Assembly: GCF_988242995.1 (NCBI RefSeq)
Contig: NZ_OZ547043.1
Strand: one strand, 5' to 3'
Length of the DNA stretch: 64,000 bases
Numbering within the stretch: position 1 is the first letter of the stretch; every line of letters starts with the position of its first letter. Position numbers and translations under genes: made by a program. The notes under the pieces were generated by a model, which did not search any database, was not told the origin of the DNA, and saw nothing but the letters and a program-made list of their open reading frames with translations. Shown here in pieces: positions 32,958 to 40,912 of this stretch.

Positions 32958-33134
32958 TTACGTTTGAATATTGCTTGAAAGGGTAATCACCTCACAGGAA
33001 ATTATTGCCCTAAGCAAGTGTTGTAACTTTCTGCTGATTTTGTAGAATCGGGTAATTTGGTTAAAAAGCCGCAGCAAGGGACTGTTTTTGCAGCGGCACA
33101 GCGTTCAGACAGTTATTTTGTTAAATGTATTAAC

Positions 33135-35483
33135 ATGCTGAGTTTATACGAAAAGATAAAGATAAGGCTGATAATTTTATTTTTATTGGCAGCACTGTCA
33201 TTTATTGGCCTTTTTTTCATCATTAACTATCAACTGGTATCGGAACGCGCGGTAAAACGTGCCGATAGCCGCTTTGAACTTATTCAGAAAAACGTTGGCT
33301 ATTTCTTTAAAGATATTGAACGTTCGGCCCTGACATTAAAGGACTCACTGTATTTATTAAAAAATACAGAGGAGATTCAACGCGCTGTGATCCTTAAAAT
33401 GGAAATGATGCCATTTTTAGACTCGGTGGGACTGGTACTTGATGATAATAAATATTATCTCTTTTCGCGGAGGGCGAATGATAAAATCGTTGTTTATCAT
33501 CAGGAAGAAGTAAATGGACCGCTTGTCGACGAGTCAGGGCGGGTTATTTTTGCCGATTTTAATCCATCGAAACGACCATGGTCGGTGGCTTCAGATGACT
33601 CTAACAACAGCTGGAATCCGGCCTACAATTGCTTTGATCGTCCGGGTAAAAAATGTATCTCTTTTACGCTACGCATCAACGGCAAAGATCACGATTTGTT
33701 AGCGGTGGATAAAATACATGTCGATTTAAACTGGCGATATCTGAACGAGTATCTTGATCAAATCAGCGCTAATGATGAAGTTCTATTTTTGAAACAAGGC
33801 CATGAGATCATTGCCAAGAATCAACTCGCGCGTGAAAAACTGATTATTTATAATAGCGAAGGTAATTATAATATTATTGATTCTGTCGATACTGAATATA
33901 TTGAAAAAACATCAGCGGTGCCAAACAACGCATTATTCGAAATCTATTTTTATTATCCTGGCGGTAATTTATTGAACGCATCAGATAAACTTTTTTATCT
34001 GCCGTTTGCTTTCATTATTATCGTATTGCTGGTGGTTTATTTAATGACCACTCGTGTGTTCCGTCGGCAATTTTCTGAAATGACCGAGCTGGTTAATACG
34101 CTGGCGTTTTTGCCCGACTCAACGGATCAGATCGAGGCTCTGAAAATTCGCGAAGGCGATGCGAAAGAGATTATCAGCATCAAAAATTCGATCGCGGAAA
34201 TGAAAGATGCTGAAATTGAACGGGCAAATAAATTGCTCTCGCTGATCTCTTACGATCAGGAAAGCGGTTTTATTAAAAATATGGCGATTATTGAGTCCAA
34301 CAATAATCAGTATCTGGCTGTGGGGATCATCAAACTGTGTGGTCTGGAAGCTGTGGAAGCGGTGTTTGGTGTTGATGAACGCAATAAAATCGTCAGGAAA
34401 TTGTGTCAGCGAATTGCCGAGAAATATGCGCAATGCTGCGATATCGTGACATTTAATGCCGATCTCTATTTACTCCTGTGCCGGGAAAATGTACAGACGT
34501 TTACCCGTAAGATAGCGACGGTAAACGATTTTGACAGCAGTTTTGGCTACCGCAATCTGCGCATCCATAAGTCTGCTATTTGTGAACCTTTGCAGGGGGA
34601 AAACGCCTGGAGTTACGCAGAAAAGCTGAAACTGGCGATTTCCAGTATCCGCAACCATATGTTCTCAGAGTTTATTTTCTGTGATGACGCGAAACTCAAC
34701 GAAATAGAAGAGAATATCTGGATTGCGCGTAATATTCGCCATGCAATGGAAATTGGCGAACTATTCCTCGTCTATCAACCGATCGTTGATATTAACACCC
34801 GCGCCATTCTGGGCGCGGAGGCGTTGTGCCGTTGGGTGTCTGCGGAGCGGGGGATCATTTCACCGCTAAAGTTCATTACCATTGCTGAAGATATCGGGTT
34901 TATCAATGAGCTGGGTTATCAGATTATTAAAACGGCAATGGGTGAATTCAGACATTTTAGTCAGCGTGCGTCGCTGAAGGATGATTTCTTACTGCATATT
35001 AATGTTTCGCCCTGGCAGTTAAACGAACCACACTTTCATGAGCGTTTTACCACCATCATGGAAGAAAATGGCCTGAAGGCGAACAGCCTCTGTGTTGAGA
35101 TCACTGAAACCGTGATCGAGCGAATTAATGAACATTTTTATCTCAATATTGAACAACTGCGTAAACAAGGAGTACGGATATCGATTGATGACTTTGGCAC
35201 CGGTTTGTCAAACCTGAAACGTTTTTATGAAATTAATCCAGATAGCATAAAGGTGGACTCACAATTTACCGGCGATATTTTCGGTACTGCGGGAAAAATT
35301 GTGCGCATTATTTTCGATCTGGCACGCTATAACCGGATCCCGGTGATTGCGGAAGGCGTAGAGAGCGAAGACGTTGCGCGCGAATTAATCAAATTAGGAT
35401 GTGTTCAGGCTCAGGGGTATCTGTACCAGAAACCCATGCCGTTCTCCGCCTGGGATAAAAGTGGAAAATTAGTAAAAGAGTAG
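33135..35483 (+). CDS. pdeI: c-di-GMP phosphodiesterase (periplasmic sensor domain, degenerate GGDEF, EAL)
   Basis: Start [15 protein letters not shown]...; EAL-domain motifs near the C-terminus (ELF, DDFGTG); matches YliE/PdeI (782 aa). The track ORF extends 26 codons upstream. Confidence 0.85.
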
Positions 35484-35490
35484 TTTACGT

Positions 35491-36819
35491 ATGTCCAGAA
35501 TCAATAAGTTCGTACTTACAGTCAGTCTGCTGATTTTTATCATGATTTCAGCAGTTGCCTGCGGGATCTACACTCAAATGGTAAAGGAACGGGTGTATGG
35601 CCTGAAACAGTCCGTTATTGATACTGCTTTTGCGGTGGCAAATATTGCTGAATATCGGCGTAGCGTGGCAATTGATCTCATCAACACGCTAAACCCCACG
35701 GAGGAACAGCTGTTGGTTGGTTTGCGCACAGCTTACGCCGACTCGGTTTCACCCTCTTATTTGTACGATGTCGGTCCTTATCTGATTTCCAGTGACGAAT
35801 GTATTCAGGTAAAGGAGTTCGAGAAAAATTATTGTGCAGATATTATGCAGATTGTGAAGTATCGACATGTCAAAAATACAGGGTTTATCTCTTTTGACGG
35901 TAAAACCTTCGTCTATTACCTCTATCCGGTAACTCATAATCGTAGTCTGATATTTTTGCTTGGTCTGGAGCGTTTTTCTTTACTGTCAAAATCGCTGGCG
36001 ATGGATAGCGAGAACCTGATGTTCTCTCTGTTTAAGAACGGTAAACCGGTGACCGGTGATGAATATAATGCTAAAAACGCCATCTTCACCGTTTCGGAAG
36101 CGATGGAGCACTTCGCCTATTTGCCGACCGGATTGTACGTATTTGCGTATAAAAAAGATGTTTATTTGCGGGTCTGTACATTGATTATTTTCTTTGCCGC
36201 ATTGGTGGCAGTGATATCGGGTGTCAGTTGCCTCTATCTGGTACGCAGAGTGATTAATCGTGGTATTGTGGAGAAAGAAGCCATCATTAATAACCATTTT
36301 GAACGCGTACTGGATGGCGGGCTTTTCTTTTCAGCTGCCGATGTCAAAAAACTCTACAGTTTGTATAACTCGGCGTTCCTGGATGACCTGACCAAAGCAA
36401 TGGGCAGAAAATCCTTTGACGAAGATTTAAAAGCGCTGCCGGAAAAAGGCGGTTATTTGTGCCTGTTTGACGTCGATAAATTCAAAAACATCAACGACAC
36501 CTTCGGTCATTTGCTGGGCGATGAAGTGTTGATGAAAGTGGTGAAAATCCTTAAATCACAGATCCCCGTAGATAAAGGTAAAGTCTACCGCTTCGGCGGT
36601 GACGAATTTGCGGTGATTTATACGGGTGGAACGCTGGAAGAGTTGCTATCGATTCTAAAAGAAATTGTTCATTTCCAGGTGGGAAGCATTAATTTAAGCA
36701 CCAGTATCGGTGTAGCGCATTCAAATGAATGTACTACCGTTGAACGCTTGAAAATGCTGGCGGATGAGCGGCTGTATAAGAGTAAGAAAAACGGCAGGGC
36801 GCAGATTAGCTGGCAGTAG
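35491..36819 (+). CDS. dgcI: Diguanylate cyclase (GGDEF domain)
   Basis: 442-aa ORF with the active-site motif RFGGDEF; matches YliF/DgcI. Confidence 0.9.
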
Positions 36820-36833
36820 AATTAGAATAGTGT

Positions 36834-36859
36834 TAGTACCCCTTAATCAAGGGGTACTA
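36834..36859. other. Perfect 9-bp-stem inverted repeat (TAGTACCCC-ttaatcaa-GGGGTACTA) at the dgcI / TA-module junction
   Basis: Read directly from the sequence; no flanking U-run on either strand, so the terminator role is uncertain. Confidence 0.4.
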
Positions 36860-36888
36860 ATGAATGTGGTAAATCATTTGCAAACATT

Positions 36889-37218
36889 TTACTTTGCAAA
36901 AACTTCCGGCCCTTTTATTGCCAATGTATTCAAAATACGTAATGCCGGGCCGCTCGGTTTTATTTCATTACGTTCCCATTTCGAGACACTTTCTTTTGAC
37001 ATTCCCATTGTATGTGCCAGCACGGATTGTGACATGCCGTATCGGGTGCGGATGGCTTTGATCTCTTCACCCGTCATTGATTTGACTTTGGCTATACGGG
37101 CGCTGACTTCACGAGCTTTGACCATGACGGCAATGGCATCAACTTCACTATCAGACATCAGGCCCAGTGCATTCAGTTCCTTTGCATCTTCCAGCATCAT
37201 TTGTAATTTATCGCTCAT
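36889..37218 (-). CDS. Type II antitoxin, HTH-XRE family (C-terminal helix-turn-helix)
   Basis: 109-aa ORF; the C-terminal segment ...IKAIRTRYGMSQSVLAHTMGMSKESVSKWERNEIKPSGPALRILNTLAIKGPEV fits an XRE/Cro-type HTH. It overlaps the upstream toxin ORF by 11 nt. Confidence 0.7.
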   Translation of the reverse strand: MSDKLQMMLEDAKELNALGLMSDSEVDAIAVMVKAREVSARIAKVKSMTGEEIKAIRTRYGMSQSVLAHTMGMSKESVSKWERNEIKPSGPALRILNTLAIKGPEVFAK

Positions 37219-37594
37219 TTTTCACCTCAATCAAAAAGCCAGTTTCGATCAAATCCTCTATTTGCTTATTGCTAAAGGCCAGAAATGCATTTGCCATTTT
37301 TTTGTAGGCCGCCAGTTCATCATCTTCGATTTCTTTGGTTCCTTTACTGCTTAGACCACTCTTGGACCAACCATCATAAAAAAACACATGATTTGCTGAT
37401 TTAAAAAAGATAATTGTTCTGGCTCCACCACTCTTTCCTTGTTGGAGGGGTAAACGTTTTTTGATGACACCGCTACCTAAATCAGCCTCCCATATGCCCT
37501 GCATCACTTCTTCAGCGGCAGCCATGAGAACTTTATCGTGAATACCAAGTTTTTTCGTGCTTTGGCTGAATCGTCTTGCCTTATACACACCCAT
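37208..37594 (-). CDS. Type II toxin, RelE/ParE superfamily (HigB-2/Gp49-like)
   Basis: 128-aa ORF preceded by SD AGGATGG; toxin-first gene order with an HTH antitoxin downstream, as in HigBA-type modules. The family call rests on pattern resemblance (GGARTIIFF...GWSKS...KEIEDDEL), not on an alignment. Confidence 0.65.
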   Translation of the reverse strand: MGVYKARRFSQSTKKLGIHDKVLMAAAEEVMQGIWEADLGSGVIKKRLPLQQGKSGGARTIIFFKSANHVFFYDGWSKSGLSSKGTKEIEDDELAAYKKMANAFLAFSNKQIEDLIETGFLIEVKNER

Positions 37595-37609
37595 ACATCC
37601 ATCCTTGTG

Positions 37610-37635
37610 GTAATGTTTACTATAGTAACCATTAC
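37610..37635. promoter_or_regulatory. 26-bp near-perfect palindrome (GTAATG-tt-TACTATAGTA-ac-CATTAC), candidate autoregulatory operator of the TA operon
   Basis: Starts 16 bp upstream of the toxin ATG; the central TACTATAGTA is perfectly palindromic. Confidence 0.5.
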
Positions 37636-37819
37636 GCTTATTTCAAGTAATTGCGATCAAAACTTTAATTTGGTGTGAAAAAGTGAGAGTTGCCTCGAGT
37701 ACGATTCATTTTTCTCGATTTATGCGTCAGGGGATTTTGTGCGTAAGGGTAGGACATCGGGAAGGGCAGCAGAGGCAGATCGAAGAACAATATCCTTGTT
37801 AGATCTGCCTTAAGATTAA

Positions 37820-39145
37820 TTAAACCCGGCTACCCCACAAATCGTACTCATCGGCGTGCTCGACTTTCACACGCAGGATATCACCCGGCTTAACGTTGGT
37901 TTCACCATTGAGATAAACCGCGCCGTCGATTTCCGGTGCATCTGCCATGCTGCGACCAATCGCGCCTTCTTCGTCCACTTCGTCGATAATCACCAGAATT
38001 TCACGGCCCACTTTCTCTTGCAGGCGCTCGGCGGAAATCTGCTGCTGCAGCTGCATGAAACGGTTCCAGCGTTCTTCTTTCACTTCTTCCGGAACCTGGT
38101 CAGGCAGGGCATTGGCGTCTGCACCTTCAACCGGGCTGTATTTAAAGCAGCCAACGCGATCCAGACGCGCTTCTTTCAGGAAGTCGAGTAGCATCTGGAA
38201 ATCTTCTTCCGTCTCGCCAGGGAAGCCGACAATAAAGGTTGAGCGTAGGGTCAGTTCCGGGCAGATTTCGCGCCACTGTTTGATGCGCGCCAGTTGGCGA
38301 TCTACAGAACCCGGACGCTTCATCAGTTTGAGAATGCGCGGGCTGGCGTGCTGCAACGGAATGTCCAGATACGGCAGGATTTTGCCTTCTGCCATCAGTG
38401 GGATGACGTCGTCCACATGCGGATAAGGGTAAACGTAGTGCAGACGTGTCCAGATCCCCAGTTTCGATAACTGTTCGCACAGGCTGACCATGCTGGTTTT
38501 TACCGGCTCGCCGTTGTGGAAGCCAGTACGATGTTTAACATCAACGCCATAGGCGGAAGTATCCTGCGAGATCACCAGAATCTCTTTAACGCCAGCATCT
38601 ACCAGACGTTTCGCTTCACTTAACACTTCGCCAATCGGACGGCTCACCAGGTCGCCGCGCATAGACGGAATAATGCAGAAGGTGCAGCGGTGATTACAGC
38701 CTTCAGAAATTTTCAGATAGGCATAATGACGCGGCGTCAGTTTCACGCCTTGTTCTGGCACCAGGCTCAGGAATGGGTTGTGTTTCGGTTTTGGCACGTA
38801 GTGATGAACGTGCTCCAGAACCTGCTCATAGCTATGAGGCCCGGTGATTTCCAGCACTTTCGGGTGGACTTCGCGGATCTGATCTTCTTTTGCCCCCAGA
38901 CAACCGGTCACAATTACCTTGCCGTTTTCATTCAACGCTTCACCAATGGCTTCCAGTGATTCTTGTACCGCGCTGTCAATAAAGCCGCAGGTGTTGACGA
39001 TCACCATGTCCGCATCGTCATAGCTCGGTACCACGTCATAACCTTCAGTGCGTAGTTCGGTGAGAATACGCTCTGAATCAACAAGGTTTTTCGGACAGCC
39101 AAGGGAAACAAAGCCGATTTTCGGCTGGGGAGTTACTTTGCTCAT
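37820..39145 (-). CDS. rimO: Ribosomal protein S12 methylthiotransferase (radical SAM MTTase)
   Basis: 441-aa ORF with N-terminal MTTase Cys residues and the radical-SAM motif CNHRCTFC; matches RimO. Confidence 0.95.
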
Positions 39146-39851: not shown

Positions 39852-40912
39852 ATGCATCGACAATCCTTTTTCCTTGTGCCCCTTATTTGTCTTTCTTCCG
39901 CTCTCTGGGCGGCTCCTGCAACGGTAAATGTCGAAGTACTGCAGGACAAACTCGACCATCCCTGGGCGCTGGCCTTTTTACCCGACAATCACGGTATGTT
40001 AATCACTCTGCGCGGCGGCGAGTTGCGTCACTGGCAAGCAGGAAAAGGATTATCTGCGCCGCTTTCCGGAGTGCCGGAAGTTTGGGCGCACGGGCAGGGT
40101 GGCCTGCTGGATGTGGTTTTAGCGCCTGATTTTGCTCAGTCTCGCCGCATCTGGTTAAGTTATTCCGAAGTTGGCGATGATGGCAAAGCCGGAACTGCTG
40201 TGGGTTATGGCCGCTTAAGTGATGATCTCTCAAAGGTGACCGACTTCCGCACCGTCTTTCGCCAGATGCCAAAACTGTCTACCGGCAACCATTTTGGCGG
40301 GCGGCTGGTATTCGACGGTAAAGGTTATCTTTTTATTGCTCTGGGCGAAAACAATCAGCGCCCGACGGCGCAGGATCTGAATAAATTACAGGGCAAACTG
40401 GTGCGTCTGACCGACCAGGGCGAAATCCCGGATGATAATCCTTTTATAAAGGAATCCGGTGCGCGCGCCGAGATCTGGTCTTATGGCATTCGTAATCCGC
40501 AAGGAATGGCGATGAAATTAATATCCCGCAAAAAGGCAAAAACTACGGCTGGCCGCTGGCAACCTGGGGAATCAACTATTCAGGCTTTAAGATACCGGAA
40601 GCGAAAGGGGAGATCGTCGCCGGGACCGAGCAACCTGTTTTTTACTGGAAAGATTCGCCCGCCGTGAGCGGCATGGCCTTCTATAACAGCGATAAATTCC
40701 CCCAGTGGCAGCAAAAATTATTTATTGGCGCGCTGAAAGATAAAGATGTCATTGTGATGAGCGTCAACGGCGACAAAGTGACAGAAGATGGCCGTATTTT
40801 AACGGACAGAGGGCAGCGAATTCGTGATGTTCGCACTGGACCCGACGGTTATTTATACGTTCTCACCGACGAGTCCAGTGGGGAATTACTTAAAGTTAGC
40901 CCACGCAATTAG
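39852..40912 (+). pseudogene. yliI: Soluble aldose sugar dehydrogenase (PQQ-dependent beta-propeller), disrupted by a frameshift
   Basis: N-terminal 218 aa (signal peptide ... NPQGMAM) are in one frame (ORF 39852..40667), and the C-terminal portion (GDEINIPQKGKNYGWPLATWGINYSGF...KVSPRN) continues in another frame (to 40912). The first frame degenerates into low-complexity sequence after position 40514. Confidence 0.75.

What the first reader, a model, noticed from the sequence alone, without database searches (positions are those of the whole stretch)
36820..37819. Toxin-first type II toxin-antitoxin module inserted between dgcI and rimO
Two small overlapping minus-strand ORFs (toxin 37208..37594, 128 aa; antitoxin 36889..37218, 109 aa, 11-nt overlap) lie between genes that I recall as adjacent in K-12. 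The upstream protein resembles RelE/ParE-superfamily Gp49/HigB-2-type toxins and the downstream one ends in an XRE-type helix-turn-helix. Toxin-before-antitoxin order is the HigBA arrangement. The module sits next to the c-di-GMP enzymes pdeI/dgcI and is flanked by a perfect 9-bp-stem hairpin at 36834-36859.
Basis: partly seen in the sequence, partly recalled or inferred. Interest (0 to 1): 0.6.

Follow-up and report, generated by a model that had tools for sequence, protein, structure and literature searches.

The report
Annotated HigBA-2-type toxin–antitoxin pair
Two small overlapping genes between dgcI and rimO in this E. coli strain form a toxin–antitoxin pair of a known family (the Vibrio cholerae HigB-2/HigA-2 type) that public genome annotation already labels, so the finding is correct but ordinary.

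Summary
Two minus-strand ORFs of 128 aa and 109 aa overlap by 11 nt between dgcI and rimO, and K-12-type strains have only a 41-nt spacer there.

- **Toxin:** the upstream protein is a full-length match to Pfam PF06296 (E 8e-33), the HigB-2 family. Its profile and its AlphaFold model both hit V. cholerae HigB-2 first.
- **Antitoxin:** the downstream protein has a C-terminal XRE helix-turn-helix that matches the HigA-2 C-domain (TM 0.8).
- **Regulation:** a promoter-like site has its −10 box inside a 26-bp palindrome. The same motif lies upstream of the toxin gene in all 19 loci examined (this window and 18 relatives).
- **Selection:** both genes are under purifying selection (pN/pS about 0.2).
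- **Distribution:** RefSeq already annotates the toxin, and 1128 of 5426 complete E. coli genomes carry the module at this site.

Three caveats apply. "Gp49" is the wrong family. "Inserted" is not shown, because Kluyvera and a related genus carry the same pair at the same gsiD–rimO/bssR position and I found no mobility signatures. One of the four HigB-2 catalytic residues is Trp instead of Tyr. Toxicity and neutralisation remain untested.

Interest is low.

The parts
37208..37594 (-). Toxin gene, 128 aa, HigB-2-type RelE-superfamily toxin (Pfam PF06296)
   Evidence: ORF. Pfam PF06296 E 7.9e-33 over residues 1-124 of 128, model positions 1-120/120. Family profile hits HigB-2 5ja8/5ja9/5jaa at E 1e-4. 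The AF2 model (pLDDT 88) gives Foldseek top hits that are all HigB2. RefSeq WP_000539521.1 is named 'type II toxin-antitoxin system RelE/ParE family toxin'.
36889..37218 (-). Antitoxin gene, 109 aa: N-terminal helical segment (about residues 1-46) followed by a C-terminal XRE-type HTH (about residues 48-105). The start overlaps the toxin stop by 11 nt.
   Evidence: ORF. HTH_3 E 3.4e-9 at residues 53-94. phmmer hit to HigA-2 5jaa_A, E 5.7e-4, residues 47-106. The modelled HTH domain superposes on the HigA2 C-domain at TM 0.78-0.80, rmsd 1.4-1.6 A. It lies downstream of a PF06296-type toxin in 17 of the 19 loci from a species-wide scan. RefSeq WP_001280945.1.
37619..37646 (-). Promoter-like site: -35 TTGAAA (37646-37641), 16-nt spacer, -10 TATAGT (37624-37619)
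   Evidence: Consensus scan, 10 of 12 matches. The -10 box and the TTG of the -35 box are conserved in Kluyvera and UBA5654. Transcription itself was not tested.
37610..37635 (.). Candidate operator: 26-bp palindrome GTAATGgTTACTA|TAGTAAaCATTAC centred on the -10 box. The core TTACTATAGTAA is at 37617-37628.
   Evidence: Inverted repeat I3. The core occurs once in 64 kb, with 0.03 expected by chance. The same GTAA-N3-TTAC-TATA-GTAA-N3-TTAC motif lies upstream of the toxin gene, close to its start codon, in all 19 loci examined, this window included, while the flanking DNA is unrelated.
37602..37606 (-). Shine-Dalgarno-like AAGGA, 7 nt upstream of the toxin ATG
   Evidence: Read directly from the sequence. 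Relatives have GAGGTG or GGAG at the same position.
36833..36860 (.). Perfect 12-bp stem / 4-nt loop hairpin between the converging antitoxin and dgcI ends. It is a probable bidirectional 3'-end or terminator hairpin, although no U-tract follows it.
   Evidence: The terminator scan did not call it, because there is no T-run. Kluyvera has a different hairpin at the equivalent place.
37773..37810 (.). Imperfect hairpin just after the rimO stop codon. It takes the place of the K-12 spacer hairpin.
   Evidence: Inverted repeat I1. -16.2 kcal/mol, z -3.4. The K-12 allele has an unrelated hairpin, CAGGCCGG...CCGGCCTG.
36819..37813 (.). The block that differs from K-12-type strains: about 995 bp here against a 41-nt unrelated spacer there. 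The boundaries lie at the dgcI stop codon and 6 nt beyond the rimO stop codon.
   Evidence: Pairwise alignment with a K-12-type locus. 1128 of 5426 complete E. coli genomes carry the long allele.
37647..37772 (.). Unexplained 126-nt spacer between the TA promoter and the rimO-proximal hairpin
   Evidence: No Rfam match. No similarity to the Kluyvera or UBA5654 spacers, and no remnant of the UBA5654 SUKH gene.

Best explanation
This is a chromosomal, autoregulated type II toxin-antitoxin operon of the HigB-2/HigA-2 kind. A sigma-70-type promoter at 37646-37619 drives a bicistronic mRNA. The 128-aa toxin is translated first, and the 109-aa antitoxin is translationally coupled to it through the 11-nt overlap. 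By homology, the toxin is a RelE-fold, ribosome-dependent mRNA endonuclease. Its basic active-site residues R47, R59 and K78 correspond to R51, R64 and K84 of V. cholerae HigB-2, and W76 stands in place of Y82. The antitoxin neutralises the toxin with its N-terminal helical segment. It dimerises and binds DNA through its C-terminal XRE helix-turn-helix. Its target is the 26-bp palindrome that spans the -10 box, so the antitoxin, or the toxin-antitoxin complex, represses its own promoter. The 12-bp hairpin at 36833-36860 marks the 3' end of the operon and of the converging dgcI transcript. What is shown: the gene anatomy, family membership, the fold match, conservation of the operator, purifying selection and the distribution. 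What is inferred from homology: toxicity, mRNA cleavage, neutralisation, repression and termination.
For: Toxin: full-length PF06296 match, E 7.9e-33. PF06296 is the HigB-2 family, with toxin-first order and ribosome-dependent mRNA degradation, according to PMC11980606. A profile of 22 homologues hits only HigB-2 chains in the PDB at E 1e-4. The AF2 model (pLDDT 88.4) returns HigB2 as the top five Foldseek hits, with prob 1.0 and TM 0.47-0.57. Mapping the alignment onto the mutagenesis in PMC5416850 gives R51/R64/K84 = R47/R59/K78, and all three are invariant in the family alignment. Antitoxin: HTH_3 in the C-terminal half, a sequence hit to HigA-2, and a modelled HTH domain that superposes on the HigA2 C-domain at TM 0.8, rmsd about 1.5 A. 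A fused toxin-linker-antitoxin model has pTM 0.73 with pLDDT above 90 on the antitoxin N-terminal helices. Operator: the palindrome spans the -10 box, and its motif is conserved in all 19 loci examined, this window included. In V. cholerae the HigA2 operator likewise runs from after the -35 box over the -10 box (PMC11006873). Selection: pN/pS is 0.17-0.26 with near-saturated synonymous sites. The module is intact and annotated in 1128 complete E. coli genomes. Relatives on Xenorhabdus, Providencia and Moellerella plasmids keep the same two-gene layout, in one case beside the replication gene.
Against: No experiment on this module was found in the searchable literature. Similarity to HigB-2 itself is remote: single-sequence phmmer finds nothing in the PDB, identity is 13-17% and TM only about 0.5. 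The Tyr that is worth 1200-fold activity in VcHigB2 (Y82) is Trp here and in nearly all close relatives. NCBIfam and PADLOC have no model that matches the toxin. The antitoxin N-terminal segment is predicted as two helices, not the helix-plus-strand of HigA2, and I could not inspect the modelled interface. The hairpin lacks a U-tract.
Confidence: 0.82

Rival explanations
1. The pair is a TA by descent, but the toxin is catalytically weakened or works differently, for example by binding the ribosome or inhibiting translation without cleavage. The reason would be that the general acid/stacking Tyr of HigB-2/RelE is replaced by Trp.
For: W76 aligns with VcHigB2 Y82, and Y82A costs 1200-fold activity. 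Trp is nearly invariant in this clade, and only the most distant homologue, P0069, keeps Tyr.
Against: The other three active-site residues and the basic beta2-beta3 loop (GKSGG) are invariant. An aromatic residue can still stack on the base. RelE-family toxins are known to tolerate varied catalytic residues (PMC5416850). A tightly linked antitoxin under purifying selection implies that there is still something to neutralise.
Confidence: 0.08
2. The module is a recent insertion delivered by a mobile element into a previously empty dgcI-rimO spacer, which is the first reader's 'inserted'.
For: It is absent from K-12 and from 79% of complete E. coli genomes. No other Escherichia species representative matched the antitoxin pattern. 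Its G+C content is 41-45% against about 53% for rimO and gsiCD. Distant relatives sit on plasmids next to transposases.
Against: There is no IS element, integrase or target-site duplication at the boundaries. The empty allele carries an unrelated 41-nt spacer rather than a clean joint. The nearest relatives (68-78% identity) occupy the same gsiD-[A,T]-rimO/bssR interval, in the same orientation, in Kluyvera georgiana, K. sichuanensis and Enterobacteriaceae UBA5654. Their synonymous divergence is similar to that of the flanking core genes. Within E. coli the module differs by up to 1.2-1.6% between lineages, like its flanks.
Confidence: 0.3
3. The module's main role is anti-phage defence by abortive infection, rather than genome stabilisation or selfish persistence.
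For: RelE/ParE-superfamily toxins are reported as defence toxins (title and abstract of PMC11980606). The module is strain-variable.
Against: The toxin has no PADLOC match, and the antitoxin matches only generic HTH models. No defence genes lie beside it. It has no counterpart in phage genomes. It is a single fixed chromosomal site, not a defence island. This rival concerns biological role and is compatible with the mechanism given above.
Confidence: 0.15
4. The HTH protein is mainly a transcription factor for the neighbouring c-di-GMP and biofilm genes (pdeI, dgcI, bssR), and the 'toxin' is its co-regulator.
For: The module is next to dgcI in E. coli and next to bssR in K. sichuanensis.
Against: The operator core occurs only once in the 64-kb window, in the module's own promoter. 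Plasmid-borne and other chromosomal relatives have entirely different neighbours but keep the same operator. dgcI converges on the module and does not share a promoter region with it.
Confidence: 0.03

Closest known systems
Vibrio cholerae HigB-2/HigA-2 (VCA0468/0469; PDB 5JAA, 5JA8, 8A0X)
   Same: The toxin belongs to the same Pfam family (PF06296). The gene order is toxin-first. The antitoxin has the same inverted domain order, with the neutralising segment N-terminal to an XRE HTH. Three of the four active-site residues are identical. There is a single inverted-repeat operator over the -10 box. Both partners hit this complex as their best TA match.
   Different: Toxin identity is only 13-17%. 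The toxin is 128 aa against 110 aa, with two C-terminal helices plus a short terminal strand. Trp replaces Tyr82. The antitoxin N-terminal segment is predicted as two helices rather than a helix plus a strand. The operator sequence is different (GTAA-N3-TTAC repeats against TGTACGC-N5-GCGTACA). The module is a fixed chromosomal site, not a superintegron cassette.
E. coli K-12 RelBE (Pfam PF05016)
   Same: RelE/BECR fold and Arg/Lys-based active site. The expected activity is ribosome-dependent cleavage of A-site mRNA, and the operon is autoregulated.
   Different: It belongs to a different Pfam family. The gene order is antitoxin-first. RelB is a ribbon-helix-helix protein whose neutralising segment is C-terminal.
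Proteus vulgaris Rts1 HigBA (PF05015/PF09907-type HigB)
   Same: Toxin-first operon with an XRE-HTH antitoxin.
   Different: The toxin belongs to a different subfamily. PvHigA is fully folded and lacks a separate neutralising segment (PMC5416850). It appears only as a weak structural hit (9chn).
E. coli MqsRA
   Same: Toxin-first order. The antitoxin C-terminal HTH resembles that of MqsA (TIGR03830 E 1.8e-12; PF15731 E 5e-4; 3fmy TM 0.74).
   Different: The TIGR03830 score of 47.1 is below the curated cut-off of 61.8. The antitoxin has no cysteine, so it cannot form the MqsA zinc-binding N-domain. The toxin is not in the MqsR family.

Membership tests
HigB-2-type RelE toxins (Pfam PF06296) | Significant full-length match to the family HMM | tested here: met
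   E 7.9e-33, 113.7 bits, residues 1-124 against model positions 1-120/120. All 69 homologues that carry a Pfam annotation carry PF06296.
HigB-2-type RelE toxins (Pfam PF06296) | RelE/BECR fold closest to HigB-2 | tested here: met
   The AF2 model has pLDDT 88.4. The Foldseek top five hits are all HigB2 chains, prob 1.0, TM 0.47-0.57, followed by YafQ, S. pneumoniae TA, ParE and BrnT. The TM-score is only moderate.
HigB-2-type RelE toxins (Pfam PF06296) | Active-site residues Arg51, Arg64, Tyr82 and Lys84 of VcHigB2 | tested here: inconclusive
   R47, R59 and K78 align with R51, R64 and K84 and are invariant. Position 82 is Trp (W76), not Tyr.
HigB-2-type RelE toxins (Pfam PF06296) | Ribosome-dependent mRNA cleavage and growth inhibition | not testable with these tools
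   This needs expression and in vitro translation assays.
HigA-2-type antitoxins | C-terminal XRE (HTH_3) DNA-binding and dimerisation domain | tested here: met
   HTH_3 E 3.4e-9 at residues 53-94. 5jaa_A E 5.7e-4. HigA2 C-domain TM 0.78-0.80, rmsd 1.4-1.6 A, 27-28% identity.
HigA-2-type antitoxins | N-terminal toxin-neutralising segment placed before the HTH | tested here: inconclusive
   There are 46 residues before the HTH, with a conserved LEDAKELNA motif. In the fused AF2 model these helices have pLDDT above 90 and the overall pTM is 0.73. I could not inspect interface contacts, and there is no sequence similarity to the HigA2 disordered region.
Type II TA operon | Two adjacent, co-oriented, coupled small genes that are kept together across genomes | tested here: met
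   The overlap is 11 nt here and 4-11 nt in relatives. A toxin homologue lies directly upstream of the antitoxin homologue in 17 of 19 loci from the species scan.
Type II TA operon | Autoregulation through an operator in the operon's own promoter | tested here: inconclusive
   A 26-bp palindrome spans the -10 box and is conserved in all 19 loci examined, this window included. Binding and repression were not testable.
Gp49 toxins (Pfam PF05973) | Match to the PF05973 HMM | tested here: not met
   PF05973 does not appear among the Pfam hits, even at E up to 10.
MqsA antitoxins (TIGR03830 / PF15731) | Score above the curated cut-off and N-terminal CxxCG zinc-binding motifs | tested here: not met
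   47.1 bits against a cut-off of 61.8, covering only the HTH half. The 109-aa sequence contains no cysteine.
Mobile-element insertion | Flanking direct repeats, an IS element, transposase or integrase, or a tRNA/att site | tested here: not met
   There are no direct repeats at the boundaries. The neighbours are dgcI and rimO only. There is no phage match, and the only E. coli 'plasmid' hits are chromosome-sized or chromosome-derived records.
Known anti-phage defence systems (PADLOC) | Match of the effector to a defence-system model | tested here: not met
   The toxin matches 0 families, and the antitoxin matches only generic HTH models.

The most novel reading that the evidence does not exclude
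The evidence does not exclude two more novel readings. First, this Enterobacterales clade of HigB-2-like toxins, with an invariant Trp where HigB-2/RelE use a catalytic Tyr and with an extra C-terminal helical extension, may cleave or inhibit by a modified mechanism. Second, the pair may be an ancient, positionally fixed resident of the gsiD-rimO-bssR interval, shared by Escherichia, Kluyvera and UBA5654. That would make it a rare case of a chromosomal TA inherited vertically across genera and repeatedly lost, and possibly tied to the biofilm/c-di-GMP neighbourhood.
Probability: 0.07. Interest if true: 0.4.

Novelty: already known. Interest (0 to 1): 0.12.

Why it matters
It matters little beyond bookkeeping. 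The toxin is already named as a type II TA toxin in RefSeq, in more than a thousand E. coli genomes. This work adds the following:

- the precise subfamily (HigB-2/HigA-2 type, not Gp49);
- the pairing of the unlabelled HTH protein as the antitoxin;
- a well-supported operator motif shared by the whole subfamily;
- a Tyr-to-Trp active-site difference worth one mutagenesis experiment;
- the observation that the module occupies the same chromosomal interval in other genera, which argues against a simple "insertion".

The module could serve as a lineage marker or as one more uncharacterised E. coli TA for systematic studies.

Tried and rejected
- **Toxin in other libraries:** NCBIfam has no model matching the toxin, and PADLOC has none either. 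PHROGs gave only a weak match to an unnamed family.
- **PDB by single sequence:** phmmer of the toxin found nothing. A family profile was needed.
- **Phage and plasmid collections:** the phage collection gave no DNA match. The E. coli "plasmid" hits are mislabelled chromosome-sized or chromosome-derived records.
- **RNA families:** Rfam found nothing in 36600-38000 at E up to 1.
- **Gp49 family:** rejected, with no PF05973 hit.
- **MqsA family:** rejected, because the score is below the cut-off and the protein has no cysteine.
- **Mobility signatures:** no target-site duplication or flanking repeats.
- **SUKH remnant:** the SUKH gene lies between rimO and the TA in UBA5654, but the E. coli spacer holds no trace of it.
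- **Apparent "toxin-only degraded allele":** the allele in strain BS-01 is an assembly full of homopolymer errors, not real decay.
- **Second operator copy:** none found near pdeI, dgcI, bssR or elsewhere in the window.
- **Literature:** searches by protein accession, by guessed O157 and CFT073 locus tags (ECs0913/0914, Z1059-Z1062, c0919/c0920) and by yliG plus toxin-antitoxin found no study of this locus. "NadS", an NCBIfam name that weakly matched the antitoxin, led nowhere.
- **dN/dS:** most comparisons could not be distance-corrected because synonymous sites are saturated, so I report uncorrected pN/pS instead.
Full report
**Observation**

The window is E. coli chromosome. Bases 36700-37950 are 100% identical to strain 266917_2 and several others.

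- They lie between dgcI (35491-36819, +) and rimO (37820-39145, -).
- In a K-12-type genome these two genes are separated by about 46 nt.
- Aligning the two alleles shows that the whole spacer differs: about 995 bp here (36819-37813) against an unrelated 41-nt spacer with its own hairpin in K-12. Homology resumes at the dgcI stop codon on one side and 6 nt beyond the rimO stop codon on the other.
- The reported hairpin is real and larger than stated: a perfect 12-bp stem with a 4-nt loop at 36833-36860, unique in the window, with folding z-scores of -3.5 and -4.6.

**What the proteins are**

The 128-aa protein matches Pfam PF06296 over its full length (E 7.9e-33). A recent survey of the RelE/ParE superfamily describes PF06296 as the family that includes HigB-2, with toxin-first gene order and ribosome-dependent mRNA degradation (PMC11980606).

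- A single-sequence search of the PDB finds nothing.
- A profile of 22 homologues hits only V. cholerae HigB-2 chains, at E 1e-4.
- An AlphaFold model (pLDDT 88.4) returns HigB2 as its five best Foldseek matches (prob 1.0, TM 0.47-0.57), followed by YafQ, ParE and BrnT.

The 109-aa protein has an HTH_3 domain at residues 53-94.

- It hits HigA-2 (5jaa_A) by sequence at E 5.7e-4.
- Its modelled HTH domain superposes on the HigA2 C-terminal domain at TM 0.78-0.80 and rmsd 1.4-1.6 A.
- It scores below the curated cut-off for MqsA-family antitoxins and contains no cysteine, so it is not an MqsA.
- No Gp49 (PF05973) hit appeared for the toxin.

RefSeq already names the toxin "type II toxin-antitoxin system RelE/ParE family toxin" (WP_000539521.1). 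It calls the partner "helix-turn-helix domain-containing protein" (WP_001280945.1).

**Active site**

The HMM alignment to HigB-2 uses the numbering of the structural paper. In that paper Arg51, Arg64, Tyr82 and Lys84 were shown by alanine substitution to be needed for activity (PMC5416850).

- These four residues align with R47, R59, W76 and K78 of the window protein.
- R47, R59 and K78 are invariant across the family alignment, as is the basic GKSGG loop.
- W76 is nearly invariant, so this clade carries Trp where HigB-2 has Tyr.

This is the one feature that departs from the model toxin.

**Regulatory anatomy**

- A promoter-like site, TTGAAA-16 nt-TATAGT, lies at 37646-37619 on the minus strand.
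- A 26-bp palindrome at 37610-37635 (GTAATGgTTACTA|TAGTAAaCATTAC) is centred on the -10 box.
- Its 12-bp core is invariant between E. coli and two Kluyvera species, although the surrounding intergenic DNA does not align.
- I extracted the 110 nt upstream of the toxin gene in 19 loci: this window and 18 relatives, mostly at 50-78% toxin identity (one at 34%), from chromosomes and plasmids. The same GTAA-N3-TTAC-TATA-GTAA-N3-TTAC motif appears in every one, upstream of and close to the toxin start codon.
- The core occurs only once in the 64-kb window, so I see no sign that the HTH protein regulates its neighbours.
- The V. cholerae HigA2 operator, mapped by footprinting, is likewise a single inverted repeat that starts after the -35 box and extends over the -10 box (PMC11006873).
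- A Shine-Dalgarno-like AAGGA lies 7 nt before the toxin ATG, and the antitoxin start is embedded in the toxin's last codons.

**Are the genes maintained?**

- Against Kluyvera and Enterobacteriaceae UBA5654, synonymous sites are near saturation (pS 0.69-0.90) while pN is 0.12-0.20. This gives pN/pS of 0.17-0.26 for both genes.
- A degenerate DNA pattern for the antitoxin motif KWER-x3-KPSGPALR found 19 loci among 100,044 species-representative genomes. In 17 of them a PF06296-type toxin homologue lies immediately upstream.
- Relatives on a Xenorhabdus plasmid (beside the replication gene and Tn3-family transposases) and on large Providencia and Moellerella conjugative plasmids keep the same layout.
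- A fused toxin-linker-antitoxin AlphaFold model has pTM 0.73, with pLDDT above 90 on the antitoxin's N-terminal helices. This is consistent with those helices packing on the toxin, but I could not inspect the interface.

**Distribution and origin**

- The module is present at this site in 1128 of 5426 complete E. coli genomes. Identity to the window allele is 98.4-100%, and O157:H7 is at 98.9%.
- It was not found in phage genomes.
- There are no flanking direct repeats, IS elements or integrases.
- The closest non-E. coli relatives occupy the same chromosomal interval in the same orientation:

| Organism | Gene order in the interval |
|---|---|
| E. coli (this window) | gsiD – pdeI – dgcI – [antitoxin, toxin] – rimO – bssR |
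| Kluyvera sichuanensis | gsiD – [antitoxin, toxin] – bssR |
| K. georgiana | gsiD – [antitoxin, toxin] – PTS genes |
| Enterobacteriaceae UBA5654 | gsiD – [antitoxin, toxin] – SUKH – rimO – bssR – yliI |

- Their synonymous divergence resembles that of gsiC, gsiD and rimO.
- More distant relatives (50-57% identity) sit elsewhere.
- No other Escherichia species representative matched the pattern.

The direction of the indel is therefore unresolved. The possibilities are ancient residence with repeated loss, or exchange through the conserved flanks. Both fit better than a mobile-element insertion. The module's low G+C (41-45%) is shared with pdeI and dgcI, so the whole gsiD-rimO interval looks like a variable low-GC block.

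**Mechanism proposed**

This is an autoregulated bicistronic operon.

- The toxin is a RelE-fold, ribosome-dependent mRNase.
- The antitoxin's N-terminal segment neutralises the toxin.
- The antitoxin's C-terminal HTH dimer binds the palindrome over the -10 box and represses transcription.
- The 12-bp hairpin defines the 3' ends of the converging transcripts.

Anatomy, family, fold, operator conservation and purifying selection are shown. Toxicity, cleavage, neutralisation, repression and termination are inferred by homology to V. cholerae HigBA-2.

**Comparison and novelty**

The module is a member of a known family and is already annotated as such. I found no paper on this particular E. coli locus. 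It differs from V. cholerae HigBA-2 in several ways:

- low sequence identity;
- a longer toxin C-terminus;
- Trp in place of Tyr82;
- a predicted all-helical antitoxin N-terminus;
- a different operator sequence.

None of these takes it outside the kind. A TA specialist would not be surprised by it, and its interest is low.

**Dead ends**

These are listed under "tried and rejected". The main ones are as follows:

- An apparent toxin-only degraded allele turned out to be an error-ridden assembly.
- There is no SUKH gene remnant in the 126-nt unexplained spacer at 37647-37772.
- There is no Rfam match.

Noticed in passing
window 39852-40912 (junction near 40507-40516): In this window yliI (aldose sugar dehydrogenase) is split into two ORFs of 271 aa and 82 aa. 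Compared with strain 266917_2 there is a 55-bp deletion flanked by about 10 bp of microhomology, so the gene is a frameshifted pseudogene here. The 12 best-matching complete E. coli genomes listed all carry the undeleted form.
   Followed up: partly
window 33000-37800, compared with L006, L009 and L003: pdeI, dgcI and the TA module together form a low-G+C block (0.36-0.46) between gsiD and rimO (about 0.53). Kluyvera and Enterobacteriaceae UBA5654 lack pdeI and dgcI in this interval but have the TA. The gsiD-rimO interval therefore looks like a variable accessory slot across genera.
   Followed up: partly
L023 (JAIJJM010000872.1, 'MAG: Collinsella sp.', 1198 bp): A contig binned into a Collinsella (Actinomycetota) metagenome-assembled genome is 100% identical at the protein level to the E. 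coli toxin, antitoxin and dgcI 3' end. It is almost certainly E. coli contamination of the bin.
   Followed up: no
L014 (NZ_CP172816.1, E. coli BS-01): This complete-genome record shows long homopolymer runs and scrambled sequence across the TA region. As a result PGAP calls a 122-aa toxin and no antitoxin. This is an assembly-quality artefact rather than gene decay.
   Followed up: yes
L013 (NZ_CP068680.1, E. coli NCCP12480): In this strain dgcI is followed directly by ybjM-grxA-nfsA-rimK. A deletion has therefore removed rimO, bssR, yliI, gstB and further genes. pdeI is annotated there as a pseudogene with an internal stop.
   Followed up: no
window 37647-37772: A 126-nt stretch between the TA promoter and the rimO-proximal hairpin has no Rfam match, no similarity to the equivalent spacers in Kluyvera or UBA5654, and no convincing ORF (only a 41-aa TTG-start ORF). 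Its origin and function are unexplained.
   Followed up: partly
L015 (Xenorhabdus sp. TH1 plasmid), L016/L017 (Providencia and Moellerella MOBH plasmids): Plasmid-borne relatives of the module (53-58% toxin identity) keep the 109-aa antitoxin, the overlap and the operator motif. In Xenorhabdus the pair lies between the replication gene and Tn3-family transposases, a classic plasmid-maintenance context.
   Followed up: partly
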